This document shows positions 21,731 to 34,787 of a stretch of 64,000 nt of DNA, one piece after another. Made by a program: the position numbers and the translations under genes. Source of the DNA: Octopus sinensis. Its lineage: Eukaryota. The notes under the pieces are model-generated. The model saw only the letters and a program-made list of their open reading frames with translations. It was not told the origin of the DNA and made no database searches. Numbering within the stretch: position 1 is the stretch's first letter; every line of letters starts with the position of its first letter. The DNA lies in the NCBI RefSeq assembly GCF_006345805.1, contig NC_043022.1, positions 23,808,001-23,872,000 on the forward strand, read 5' to 3'.

Positions 21731-22988
21731 CGAAAATAAAATCAAACACTAAATGAAAAATTACATATAATGGCAGCTTAGACTTTTCTTTAAATGTACC
21801 TTTCCTGATGAAAAGATATTTTGTTTTTAACGTTTGGCGCACTTCCTATTGACAAACCCGTCAATTGAACAACTAAAATTAGGAAAATTCATCGAATGTG
21901 TCCAAGCACACGTTTTTTCAATGACAATATGTTTTGTCTTCAGATAAATCTATAATGTTCTCTCGTACAAGGTACAGTAGAAGTTCCAATTTGGGTGTAC
22001 ACAATGTAAAATAAAATAAGAAAAATAGTAACAGGTGCTTCTTTTTAAAAGGTACAAATATTGTGAAGAAGTTGAAGATTGTTGGTAGCTTCTTGGTTTC
22101 AATTAGAGGTTAACGGAAATAATGTATGAATTTGTGCGATGTTAATCCATCGAATTTATTTTTAATTGTGATAATGAAACAATGGGTTCAGTCCTTACCG
22201 CCAAAATGTATCTTGCAAAAGAACCCCCACGCACACACATACATACATACACACATTTACACAATTTCAGAAGCATAGCAACAGTTGCTTCTTGGTGGGA
22301 AGAAGATGATGATGATGATTGTTGCTGATGGGATATTTCACACACACACACATACAAACATACCTATACATAGATAAACCCTACCCTAACGCACGTAGAT
22401 AAACATAGACGAAGTCCCATTTTGGAAGTATGTTAAACTTTTTAGTAGACGTATGACGGAGAATTATTTAATACCGTGTTTGCTTCTATGAGAATCGCTT
22501 ATCTTTAAAGCGAAAAAACAAAACCGACGTATACAACAGGTATGTATAACATGCTGCTTCTCTTGTTTTAACCGTTCATTTTCTGAGCTGAAGAGATTGT
22601 TGTGCTCGCGCACCCTTTATTACAGAGTAAGGAGGTGTGTGTGGATCAATTATGGAGTTTTCAGTGTGGATATTTTGCTTATGCATTCCAAAACCGAGTT
22701 GTCGATTTTCACGTATGGGATATCGAAAGAATCAGTACTATTTCCACTACTAACTAAACTTTATTGTCATTGACATATTTAAATTACAAAAATTTAAAAC
22801 TATAATCTTTTCCATATATAGGCGTAGGGGTGGCTGTGTGGTAAGTAGCTTGCCTACCAACCAGATGGTTCCGGGTTCAGTCCCACTGCGTGGCACCTTG
22901 CCTAAGTATCTTCTACTATAGCCTCAGCCGATCAAAGCCTTGTGAGTGGATTTGGTAGGCGGAAACTGAAAGAAGCCCGTCGTATATA

Positions 22989-23076
<88 letters not shown>

Positions 23077-23084
<8 letters not shown>

Positions 23085-23333
23085 AATATGTTACATTACT
23101 CGATAGTCAAGATAAAACTCCGAGTTTCAGATGCCGAAGTGGAAATCCACAACACCATCTCTTCGGTTATCTGGCTATTTGAAAACGCTATGAAAAACGC
23201 TATGAAAAAGATTTTTTCATAGCGTTTTCAAATAGCCAGATAACCGAAGAGATGGTGTTGTGGATTTCCACTTTGGCATCTGAAACTCGGACTTTTATCT
23301 TGACTATCGAGTAATGTAACATATTATTGTATA
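23077..23333. repeat. Near-perfect ~120 bp inverted repeat in (TA)n, each arm carrying a hammerhead
   Basis: 23077-23197 versus 23213-23333 differ at two positions; a ~70 bp tail follows before the next TA run. Confidence 0.95.
23110..23172 (-). ncRNA. Candidate type I hammerhead ribozyme (C4 core variant)
   Basis: AGATAA-CCGAAGA-GATG...CATC-T-GAAA-CTCGGAG-TT-TTATCT; the + copy at 23238-23300 has a G>C change breaking stem III. Confidence 0.7.
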
Positions 23334-23398
23334 GATAAATTTCCTCTATTTACATAATATTGAGGTCTCTTTCTTTCTTTTGTTATCTTACCGTTTTA

Positions 23399-23471
<73 letters not shown>

Positions 23472-23775
23472 TGTATGTTTGCATGTCTGTGTTTGTACCC
23501 CCCAACATCGCTTAACAACCGATGCTGGTGTGTTTACTTCCCCGTCACTTAGCGGTTCGGCAAAAGAGGCCGATAGAATAAGTACTAGGCTTACAAAGAA
23601 TAAGTCCTGGGGTCGATTTGCTCGACTAAAAGCAGTGCTCCTGCATGGCCACAGTCAAATGACTGAAACAAGTAAAAGACTATACGTTATGTATCGGAAA
23701 CATTTCATACGACGACCATGATGACGTCGCATTTTCTATATGAGTGTATTACCTTAAAAGAGATCCTTCATCACC

Positions 23776-25902: not shown

Positions 25903-26460
25903 TTAAAAAAAAAGGGCCCAGATGAAGAATAGTCTGAATTGAGTTATGGGGCTGGAGCGAAGAATCGAACTCTGCACCCACCTCGTTTATCAAGCTGCTC
26001 TACGCGCTGGCCATGGACCACTTTCAACCAACAAGCTAACACAGAGGTCATCCAACCACAACGTGGCTGTCATTTGACGTTTAAACATGTTAGCTTGAGG
26101 AAACCGTTGTGTCTGGTGAACCACTCCCCTCTCACAGGGACGTCCAGCTGGGACGTTATTAATACAGCCTTTGTCTCAGACCTTCCCAAGGATGAACGAG
26201 GCAACCAAAGTACCTGGATGTTATCCCTTAAACGAGCTTACACCTGAACCCAACATAACACTGCAATCTCACAGCTTATATACCTATAAGCCATGGTATA
26301 TGCATAGGACACTGATCTCTCTTATGGTTATACTAAAGCAGAAATATAACATCTTTATTCAACACCATTCGCATATATCTATCCTAAGATATATATTAAT
26401 ATTTAACTGGGTCTGCTGCGTGGTTTTATTTGAAAATATTTATTTGTCTGTTAAACATTT
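25903..26460 (-). repeat. ~550 bp block duplicated at 34231-34787, ending in a tRNA-like Pol III unit (25905-26019)
   Basis: Direct repeat 8327 bp apart with only a handful of differences; A-box-like TGGCCAGCGCGT, B box GAGTTCGATTC, T-run terminator. Confidence 0.9.
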
Positions 26461-31425: not shown

Positions 31426-33960
31426 TTACTGAAATGATTCATTATCGATGCCATGTGATGCACTTTTATGCCTTTTAAGCCCCACCAAAGTTTTACACAT
31501 TTTACTACATGCTACACAGTTGTGCTGGCTGGCAGGAGAGACAGATGCCACCGTATGCACTTTCTTAATATATCTTTTCAGACCTCCATCTGAGAGGCAC
31601 ATCTTTCCACATTTTACACATTTTCTGTTGTGAATCTTAATGGCCACATCACTGTTTATCATGGGTCGATTCCTGTGAGATGGCTGACCAGGCCTGCATG
31701 TCTCAAACATCTCTCACAAACCACACACACAAAAAGCAACACACCCCACCCTCTCCACGAGTTCCCTCCTTCTAAGCCCCCTCCCAATTCACTCATACTT
31801 CACTCTCTCCCTATCAAACCCAAAACAACCACTGTTTTCCTCCATCCATCCCAGTCTTGTGCCTCTCTCTCCCAATTACCAACTGCAATTCCTGTCTGTA
31901 TTAGAGCAATCCTTAAACCTTAGTTTAGGCTTATGCGCTGGTCTCCTGCTGTCTTCAAGCTCACCATACAATAGTTGCTTGGGCAGTCTCTCATCACTCA
32001 TCCTTATCAGATGCTCCCACACACACACACACATCAGATGTCTTTGTAGAATCATTGTCTCCATACTTCTACTGCCACTCCTCTCAAACACCTCCACATT
32101 ACTAATGGCCATTTTCCAGTTTATCCCCCAAATTTTTCTCAGACAGTATTGATGGTATTGTTCCATTTGCTTTACATGTCTACAGTAAATAACCCCTGCC
32201 TCACTCCCATATAGCAAAGATAGCAGGACGCATGCATTATGTACCCGTGGAAATATATTATGCCGTGTCCACAGATACCTATTAAGCCTACCAAAAGCAC
32301 TACTAGCCCTGCTGATTCTGTATGAAATTTCATCATGCAGGCCAGCAGTGCTCAAGGTAATTCCTAAATAAATTAATCTAGACACAGTCTCCAACCTGTG
32401 ACCATTCTCAGTTATAAAAGGTCCCACATACATCTTGGAGAGAGCAGGTTGGTACCTTTGAACATATTTTTTGTTTTCAGATTGATTGTTACACCCAATA
32501 CTGCATATGCTGCAGAAATCGCATTCAGCATGTGCTGCATATCTTTGTGGGAATGTGCAAACAGGTCACTATCATTTGTGGAGGCACATGGCCTAGTGGT
32601 TAGAGCAGCGGACTTGCGGTCGAAGGATTGCGGGTTCGAATCTCAGACCAGGCAATGTGTATGTTTATGAGCGAAACCCCTAAGCTCCACGCTGCTCCAG
32701 CAGAAGGTGATGGTGAACTTCTGCTGACTCTTTCGCCACAACTTTCTCTCACTCTTTCCTCCTGCATCTTGCAGCTCACCTGCGACGGACTGGCGTCCCG
32801 TCCAGGTGGGGAACCTATACGCCAAGGAAACTGGGAAACTGGCCCTTATGAGCCAGGCATGGCTCGAGAAGGAACAAACAAAACAATCATTTGCATGCAG
32901 GAACTCAACAAGGTGAGAATACAGAACTTTCGTTTTGGTATAGAGTCTTTTGAGATTGAACAGTTTTCCTGTTGTCCTTTATCTTATATAGACCCTTCAG
33001 TGCAATCTTCAAATAACAAACAATGTAGGAGCAGGAATATCACCTTGTTTTACACCATTTTCTACAGAAGTTGGATCTGATAAGGTACCTCCAACATTAA
33101 CTCTCACTTTTATCTTGTCATGAAACTGTCTAAGCATTCTCACAAATTTTTCAGGATCTCCTAAAGTGCAACTCTATTGACAGAATCAAATACTTTCGTT
33201 AGATCAATGAAAACCTGATATAAGTCCATATCCTGTTCGATGCACTTCCCTTGCAACTGTCTAGCTGAAAATATCATATCCATAGTACTTCTACTATCGC
33301 TAAAACCACAATGCCATTCTGGTAGAACCTCATCAGCAATGTGCAGAAGCAGTCTGTGTAGCATTGCCCTACAAAGGACCTTTTCAGCAATAGCTAACAG
33401 ACAGATGCCACAATAATTATCACGGACATCCTTTTCACCTTTCGATTTATATAGTAACTCCATAGTTGCATCATGCCAATCCATAGGAACCTCTTTACTA
33501 TTCCAAACCCTCTGAATCACATCTGTCGACATTGCACAGAGATGATCACCACCATATTTATGTATCTCTGCACCTTGTCCATTCATACCAGGTGCCTTTC
33601 CATTGTTCAATTCTCTGATTACTGCTTTTATTTCAGAGGTTTGGAATCTCTTCTAAAAGATGTTTTGTTGGTTTCTCAGGTATATTATCATGAAAAGAAA
33701 GGCAAACTTCTGTGGGTCTATTGAGCAACTCATCAAAATGCTCTTTCCATCTCCCATCAATATCTTACATACAAGAAAAAATACCCTGTTGTTGATGTTG
33801 AAATTCCAATGAAGTAGCCTTGGATCTAAGTGAGAAACTGGCGCTTTCTCTATTGGCAAGAAATCTTGAAATAAAACTGAACAATGACATACATACATCC
33901 CACAGCCAAACACTACTTGATGGTTGAGATCTCACACATATATTACAGTAAGTACCCTGA
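31426..33960 (-). mobile_element. RTE-BovB-like LINE relic with C-terminal zinc-finger-like motifs
   Basis: GKAPG...NYCGICLL...STMDMIFSARQLQ.KC.EQ...FIDLTK.FDSV; YLG; RLPKQLLYGEL; CxxC...GLKRH motifs at 31426-31710. Confidence 0.92.
32579..32885 (+). mobile_element. SINE family C variant inserted in the RTE, 8-bp TSD
   Basis: TSD ATCATTTG at 32571-32578 and 32886-32893; A box TGGCCTAGTGG, B box GGTTCGAATCT; inverse copy at 61198-61507. Confidence 0.92.
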
Positions 33961-34230: not shown

Positions 34231-34787
34231 TTTAAAAAAAAGGCTCAGATGAAGAATAGTCTGAATTGAGTTATGGGGCTGGAACGAAGAATCGAACTCT
34301 GCACCCACCTCGTTTATCAAGCTGCTCTACGCGCTGGCCATGGACCACTTTCAACCAACAAGCTAACACAGAGGTCATCCAACCACAACGTGGCTGTCAT
34401 TTGACGTTTAAACATGTTAGCTTGAGGAAACCGTTGTGTCTGGTGAACCACTCCCCTCTCACAGGGACGTCCAGCTGGGACGTTATTAATACAGCCTTTG
34501 TCTCAGACCTTCCCAAGGATGAACGAGGCAACCAAAGTACCTGAATGTTATCCCTTAAACGAGCTTACACCTGAACCCAGCATAACACTGCAATCTCACA
34601 GCTTATATACCTATAAGCCATGGTATATGCATAGGACACTGATCTCTCTTATGGTTATACTAAAGCAGAAATATAACATCTTTATTCAACACCATTCGCA
34701 TATATCTATCCTAAGATATATATTAATATTTAACTGGGTCTGCTGCGTGGTTTTACTTGAAAATATTCATTTGCCTGTTAAATATTT
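34231..34787 (-). repeat. Second copy of the Pol III-unit block (unit ~34234-34346)
   Basis: Matches 25903-26460. Confidence 0.9.

What the first reader, a model, noticed from the sequence alone, without database searches (positions are those of the whole stretch)
23077..23402. Young perfect hairpin with a hammerhead in each arm, nested in the TA linker of a SINE
The arms differ at only two sites, one of which breaks stem III of the + copy while the minus copy keeps AGATAA/TTATCT, a CCGAAGA core, branched stem II and ACTC-G-GAGT. Either transcript could alternate between a 120-bp dsRNA and a ribozyme fold. The high identity implies recent insertion or gene conversion, so an active family may exist.
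Basis: partly seen in the sequence, partly recalled or inferred. Interest (0 to 1): 0.75.

Follow-up and report, generated by a model that had tools for sequence, protein, structure and literature searches.

The report
Folded-back Hydra-Penelope stump inside SINE
The hairpin is real, but it is the usual mirror-image stump of a very common Penelope-type jumping gene that sits in the TA repeat of another repeat; each strand carries only one hammerhead motif, placed behind its own antisense copy, so it is predicted to stay switched off rather than toggle.

Summary
Observation confirmed: arms 23077-23197 and 23213-23333 pair over 121 bp with 2 mismatches, inside the (TA)n linker of a SINE. It is the 5'-truncated 3' end of a Hydra-clade Penelope-like element (PLE): 2,629 exact matches to a 28-mer, and copies with an open 708-aa RT + GIY-YIG frame. 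Head-to-head inverted ends with a one-sided tail are the published PLE insertion shape. About 140 equally tight two-core hairpins are extrapolated genome-wide. Arm divergence (1.7%) is average for the family (1.8%, 39 pairs), and arms share source variants, so gene conversion is not needed. The switch idea fails: either transcript holds one hammerhead after its antisense, and folding it costs about 90 kcal/mol. One detail is of interest: the young subfamily has a U4C core (98 of 100 listed), while an older subfamily (95 of 100) and all 26 published Hydra rows have U4. Cleavage, transcription of this locus and polymorphism are untested. This scan reported the same layout before on other DNA.

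The parts
22821..22983 (+). 5' half of host SINE (tRNA-like head read from sequence; family name not tested)
   Evidence: Ten other matches in the window at 70-89% identity; ARAGORN finds no tRNA gene
22984..23080 (.). Left (TA)n target, about 48 units
   Evidence: Sequence; SINE linker
23077..23197 (-). Inverted 5'-truncated pLTR arm without tail; outer end at the family's start site B
23110..23172 (-). Hammerhead-like motif, stems intact, U4C core, extra U before G12, H17 = U; predicted cut between 23116 and 23115
   Evidence: architecture as in File S2 of PMC8557442
23186..23212 (.). Central junction: 12-nt tandem duplication (23186-23197, 23198-23209) plus 3 nt
   Evidence: Sequence; other hairpins have other junctions
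23213..23402 (+). Forward 5'-truncated pLTR arm; outer end at start site A
   Evidence: 97-98% identical to 39 other top-scored copies; continuous with the ORF in longer copies
23238..23300 (+). Hammerhead-like motif with stem III broken by G>C at 23292
   Evidence: fails the descriptor
23334..23402 (+). One-sided tail of about 69 nt between sites B and A; holds a possible weak bulged hairpin at 23343-23365
   Evidence: hairpin not better than shuffles, z -0.45
23403..23479 (.). Right (TA)n then (GT)n of the SINE linker
23480..23680 (+). 3' half of host SINE

Best explanation
The hairpin is two 5'-truncated copies of the 3' end of a Hydra-clade Penelope-like retroelement joined head to head in the (TA)n linker of a SINE, likely made in a single insertion event, and its hammerhead motifs are predicted to be held inactive. 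Shown: family membership, the two fixed outer ends about 69 nt apart, TA flanks, and variants shared between arms. Inferred: the element's GIY-YIG nuclease nicked both strands of the TA run; each nick primed reverse transcription on RNA of the same source element, one at site A and one at site B; both cDNAs stopped about 190 nt from site A and were joined at the centre, leaving a 12-nt slippage duplication; two point mutations then hit the plus arm. The motif is a passenger from the pLTR. Any read-through RNA would form a 121-bp duplex, a likely substrate for editing or small-RNA pathways, not a ribozyme switch.
For: Family size: 2,629 and 2,393 exact pattern matches, controls 0. Parent: L145 = pLTR, 708-aa ORF, pLTR (98.9% alike); open frames also in L144 and L146; Hydra motifs RWK, DKT, CxCx5C, CxxC, CxH present (against PMC8557442). 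Layout: 21 head-to-head and 0 tail-to-tail pairs within 4 kb among the first 100 listed matches (hand count). In 37 of 39 pairs exactly one arm carries the tail. Ends: 59 of 71 contexts stop at site A into TA and 8 run on into the leader; 44 of 85 stop at site B. Same source: 66 shared variants against 19.5 +/- 5.9 (maximum 40) in 500 re-pairings. Two other loci (L014, L041) have this element in the same SINE linker. Published: inverted 5'-truncated copy, tail and TA bias (PMC8557442, PMC3846280); two internal RT starts and both strands nicked (PMC11167929); dual minimal hammerheads on opposite strands 100-700 bp apart (PMC4209133). Energetics.
Against: The junction unique to this locus had no cover in 4 of 4 DNA runs, including the best holder (the tool warns that a hole proves nothing), so no reads confirm this copy. 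Both arms share a G at the stem III loop that is rare in the young subfamily (27 against 2,629 matches); it is concordant in three pairs (L001, L047, L050) and discordant in others (e.g. L039, L040), so conversion between arms is not excluded here. Pfam gave only a weak GIY-YIG hit (E 0.036) and none for the full protein. The tail is longer than the 30-40 bp usually reported. The twin-nick mechanism is taken from a Poseidon-clade element in vitro.
Confidence: 0.88

Rival explanations
1. Conformational switch: a transcript alternates between a 120-bp duplex and an active ribozyme fold.
For: The minus-strand motif keeps all three stems. A transcript starting at the centre would lack the antisense arm, and the penalty falls to 9-10 kcal/mol.
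Against: Each strand has one motif, downstream of its antisense. The penalty is 90.6-94.9 kcal/mol, and 86.5-90.6 for prefixes ending just after the motif. Even alone, this copy is predicted to pair CCGA of the core with UCGG of stem III (penalty 9.0 against 5.2 for the family). No promoter at the centre and no transcription of this locus is shown.
Confidence: 0.03
2. One copy inserted, and the mirror arm arose or was homogenised later by DNA fold-back or gene conversion; or the RT self-primed on its own product.
For: Rare G shared by both arms. PMC3846280 reads palindromes at inverted junctions as self-priming. Self-priming would also give shared variants.
Against: Inverted arms stop at a fixed internal site B, which is also where the 3' pLTR of full-length L145 ends. 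Arm lengths are usually unequal, and either arm can be the longer one. Divergence here equals the family mean.
Confidence: 0.07
3. Assembly artefact (fold-back chimera).
For: No contig covered the junction; long TA runs on both sides.
Against: Two substitutions between arms, an asymmetric tail, the family-specific end at site B, both SINE halves in register, and many like structures with distinct junctions.
Confidence: 0.02

Closest known systems
Hydra-clade C-terminal EN+ PLEs, including Hydra-1_Obim (Craig et al. 2021, PMC8557442; passages, File S1 Hydra sheet and File S2 table seen)
   Same: Under 3 kb, single ORF, RWK, DKT, CxCx5C, CxxC and CxH motifs, (TA)n targets, hammerhead in the pLTR. 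Stem III ACTC-n-GAGT in 5 of 26 rows and H17 = U in 10 of 26 rows. Penelope-13_HM is listed with an inverted copy and a motif on each strand.
   Different: A different family from Hydra-1_Obim (other stem I and II sequences; protein compared by eye only). Core U4C against 'ctga' in 26 of 26 rows; unpaired pyrimidine only on the 3' side of stem II; longer stem II; tail about 69 nt.
Inverted pLTR plus tail insertions of EN+ PLEs (PMC3846280, passages; PMC8557442 Fig. 2 legend)
   Same: Head-to-head inverted 5'-truncated copy, tail on one arm only.
   Different: Here both arms are truncated to pLTR size, so no ORF remains; no target-site duplication can be discerned in the TA run.
PAc Poseidon element in vitro (Frangieh et al. 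2024, PMC11167929; parts 1-2 of 4 read)
   Same: Two internal RT start sites downstream of the hammerhead define the tail; AT-rich target; uncut RNA is the main template.
   Different: Other clade. There the ORF starts inside the hammerhead; here the ATG lies about 210 nt after the cut site.
Minimal PLE hammerheads (Cervera and De la Pena 2014, PMC4209133; parts 1-2 of 4 read)
   Same: Type I motif with palindromic helix III; dual motifs on opposite strands close together, ascribed to truncated PLEs.
   Different: U4C core and 3'-side bulge were not in the parts read; activity untested here.
Non-LTR retrozymes (bioRxiv 10.64898/2026.07.22.740005; passages only, supplements closed)
   Same: ORF-less hammerhead-bearing units related to pLTRs.
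   Different: Those are head-to-tail units that allow cis dimers. This is head-to-head, and its inner ends vary from copy to copy, so it is not an independent non-autonomous family.

Membership tests
Hydra-clade PLE | Single ORF with RT and C-terminal GIY-YIG, element under 3 kb | tested here: met
   708-aa ORF in a 2,848-nt unit with both pLTRs; YKDD at 346, IIYE...YVG at 576. Pfam support is weak.
Hydra-clade PLE | RWK present, DKG changed to DKT, GxKF/Y absent | tested here: met
   RWK 37, DKT 114, no GxKF/Y; RW[KR] in 116 and DK[TS] in 120 of the 120 listed homologues
Hydra-clade PLE | CxCx5C linker, CxxC and CxH near the C terminus | tested here: met
   Positions 557, 660, 691; absence of CCHH judged by eye
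Hydra-clade PLE | Insertion into (TA)n | tested here: met
   59 of 71 site-A contexts and 44 of 85 site-B contexts run into TA
Hydra-clade PLE | Placement in the Hydra clade on an RT tree | not tested
EN+ PLE insertion unit | Inverted 5'-truncated copy with one-sided tail | tested here: met
   37 of 39 pairs
Type I hammerhead ribozyme | Three helices around the core | tested here: met
   Minus copy yes; plus copy stem III broken
Type I hammerhead ribozyme | Consensus core C3 U4 G5 A6 N7 G8 A9 / G12 A13 A14 / A15 U16 H17 | tested here: not met
   U4 is C in both arms and there is an extra U before G12; the older subfamily has U4. PMC3088659 says U4C lowers activity in vitro yet permits viroid infectivity.
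Type I hammerhead ribozyme | Self-cleavage after H17 | not testable with these tools
   Indirect only: no strong pile-up of 5' ends at the cut site
Non-LTR retrozyme | Head-to-tail unit with fixed ends | tested here: not met
   Head-to-head; inner ends vary widely among copies

The most novel reading that the evidence does not exclude
The youngest and most numerous subfamily of this Hydra-clade element spread to thousands of copies after its hammerhead core decayed (U4C plus a C-to-U change beside G12), a natural experiment showing that self-cleavage is dispensable, or even costly, for PLE amplification in an animal genome.
Probability: 0.35. Interest if true: 0.5.

Novelty: new member of a known kind. 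Interest (0 to 1): 0.2.

Why it matters
The locus itself is ordinary. The family is a usable test set for two open questions on PLEs. First, how inverted ends and tails form: thousands of young copies show two fixed start sites and arms from one source, as the Anolis in vitro work predicts. Second, what the hammerhead is for: an older U4 and a younger C4 subfamily can be compared directly in a cleavage assay. Hundreds of near-perfect hairpins may also feed dsRNA editing in the host, which was not tested here.

Tried and rejected
Rfam: only generic miRNA-hairpin matches below gathering score at the locus. Pfam and PDB did not name the full protein. Polymorphism: contigs of four DNA runs did not cover the junction; inconclusive, and the TA runs and SINE halves prevent bridging. 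Expression: contigs of four runs guessed to be RNA cover the ORF in 30, 30, 30 and 15 of 30 bins; RNA status is a guess and nothing ties them to this locus. Cut-site footprint: counts fall 2,087 > 2,019 > 1,888 > 1,789 as the pattern is extended by 4 nt. The step across the cut (6.5%) exceeds the downstream step (3.3%, p 2e-6) but not the upstream step (5.2%, p 0.11). Of 7 listed copies lost at that step, 6 were fetched: 5 were T-run indels or substitutions and 1 a truncation at the site (its duplicate was not fetched). No footprint is claimed. Selection on the motif between subfamilies: 1 of 11 core and 1 of 28 stem positions differ against 12 of 122 flank positions; too few to tell. RNA editing as the source of the shared G: not needed, since G is the older subfamily's majority state (24 of 34). 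Tail hairpin (lead from e1-9869566): z -0.45; the commonest variant falls in the bulge (59 and 9 of 84); weak. Sequence search of earlier findings: nothing.

Full report
Observation. The arms 23077-23197 and 23213-23333 pair over 121 bp with two mismatches. They are followed by an unpaired 69-nt tail to 23402 and flanked by TA runs. The unit interrupts the linker between two halves of a repeat found several times in the window; the linker is 496 nt here and 9-157 nt in the other copies. That this repeat is an octopus tRNA-derived SINE is recalled, not tested; one search was a search listing only. The host is inferred to be an octopod from that recall, the likeness to Hydra-1_Obim and earlier notes.

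Hammerhead anatomy. A descriptor gave 157 hits in 553,085 bases, 0 in 5 shuffles, and only the minus copy in the window. File S2 of PMC8557442 lists 26 Hydra rows: all begin 'ctga', 5 have ACTC-n-GAGT and 10 have U at the cleavage site (hand count). The motif is therefore a Hydra-type hammerhead homologue with a non-consensus core.

Family. The right arm has 1,568 candidates, of which 40 were scored, at 97-100%; a 28-mer occurs 2,629 times. Longer copies continue upstream into an ORF. Three copies among 150 scored hits show 717-codon open frames; L145 is pLTR, 708-aa ORF, pLTR. The protein has RWK, DKT, YKDD, CxCx5C, a GIY-YIG-like stretch, CxxC and CxH, the Hydra features in PMC8557442. It has 979 homologues among 7,995 scored candidates, none named among the 120 listed. 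Pfam support is weak or absent. No tree was built.

The hairpin is routine. Among the first 100 of 2,393 matches to the core pattern, I count 21 head-to-head pairs within 4 kb, 6 of them within 100 bp (the window's own spacing is 90), and no tail-to-tail pair. That extrapolates to about 140 tight hairpins. In one search, 15 duplicate loci were dropped and 46 inverted pairs found, 39 with 25 or more overlapping positions; the sample is biased to good matches and includes this locus. In 37 of 39 exactly one arm bears the tail. Arms differ at 103 of 5,774 positions (1.8%) and share 66 variants, against 19.5 +/- 5.9 when arms of different loci are paired. So both arms derive from one source element, and this copy (2 of 121) is of average age. 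Outer ends fall at two sites: site A (59 of 71 contexts stop into TA, 8 continue into the 5' leader) and site B (44 of 85 stop, 34 continue). L014 and L041 hold the element in the same SINE linker.

Mechanism. Shown: two fixed ends, TA flanks, shared variants, variable inner ends. Inferred from PMC11167929 (both strands nicked and extended, two internal RT starts, hammerhead cleavage not required): two nicks prime two cDNAs that are joined at their truncated ends. Self-priming (PMC3846280) or later conversion remain possible, since the rare shared G is concordant in L001, L047 and L050 but not in L039 or L040. Nearly all copies read through the predicted cut site, so templates were mostly uncut or re-ligated.

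No switch. The motifs point away from the centre, so either transcript makes the antisense arm first and then one motif. Forcing the hammerhead fold costs 94.9 (plus) or 90.6 (minus) kcal/mol; from the centre it costs 10.1 or 9.0. A cis dimer is impossible because the two motifs are on opposite strands. These are predictions; nothing shows that the locus is transcribed.

U4C. An older subfamily (246 matches; mean divergence 5.3%, n = 33) has U4 in 95 of 100 listed. The young one (2,393 matches; 2.0%, n = 81) has C4 in 98 of 100. PMC3088659 states that U4C lowers activity in vitro but permits viroid infectivity (the only paper holding all terms). A second, unrelated motif family shows CCGA in 2 of 3 hits, so U4C may simply be tolerated. 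Differences by region are too few to test selection. Searches returned no paper on this family or on U4C in PLEs; subscription journals, Repbase and bioRxiv supplements were not visible.

Activity and reality. Open frames and 98.9% identical pLTRs fit recent activity. Ends at 95-99%+ identity occur in runs under four organism labels, so the burst may predate those splits. The junction was not covered in 4 of 4 runs (inconclusive). ORF contigs occur in runs guessed to be RNA.

Papers seen: PMC8557442 passages plus File S1 Hydra sheet, File S2 and sequence excerpts; PMC11167929 and PMC4209133 parts 1-2 of 4; PMC3846280, PMC3088659 and the 2026 bioRxiv preprint as passages; as listings only.

Verdict. 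A real feature: a new member of a known kind, with low interest for the locus and one testable side lead.

Noticed in passing
window 25918-26247 and 34245-34574 (minus): Two nuclear RNase P RNA genes (110.8 and 115.4 bits) inside a 564-bp duplication at 98% identity.
   Followed up: partly
L031 (minus, about 1324 from the end), L041:1773, L103:2096: A second, unrelated short hammerhead family (stem II GAGC/GCTC, stem III ACGT); two of three hits have a CCGA core.
   Followed up: no
L036:4187, L113 (minus), L067:1640: Further hammerhead-like motifs, two with a stem II region of 50-60 nt; echoes earlier notes on long-armed motifs.
   Followed up: no
window 23343-23365: Possible bulged hairpin in the tail; the commonest variant lies in the bulge, but folding is not better than shuffles.
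   Followed up: partly
L144, L145, L146: Three copies with an uninterrupted 708-aa ORF; the catalytic motif reads YKDD.
   Followed up: partly
L147, L148: Kilobase-long inverted insertions (1.2 and 1.8 kb arms at 99.1% and 96.8%) of the same family.
   Followed up: no
window 31879-33652 (minus): ORF fragments that look like a LINE reverse transcriptase, by eye.
   Followed up: no
window 19565-19407: Another SINE copy whose TA linker holds about 110 nt of other sequence.
   Followed up: no
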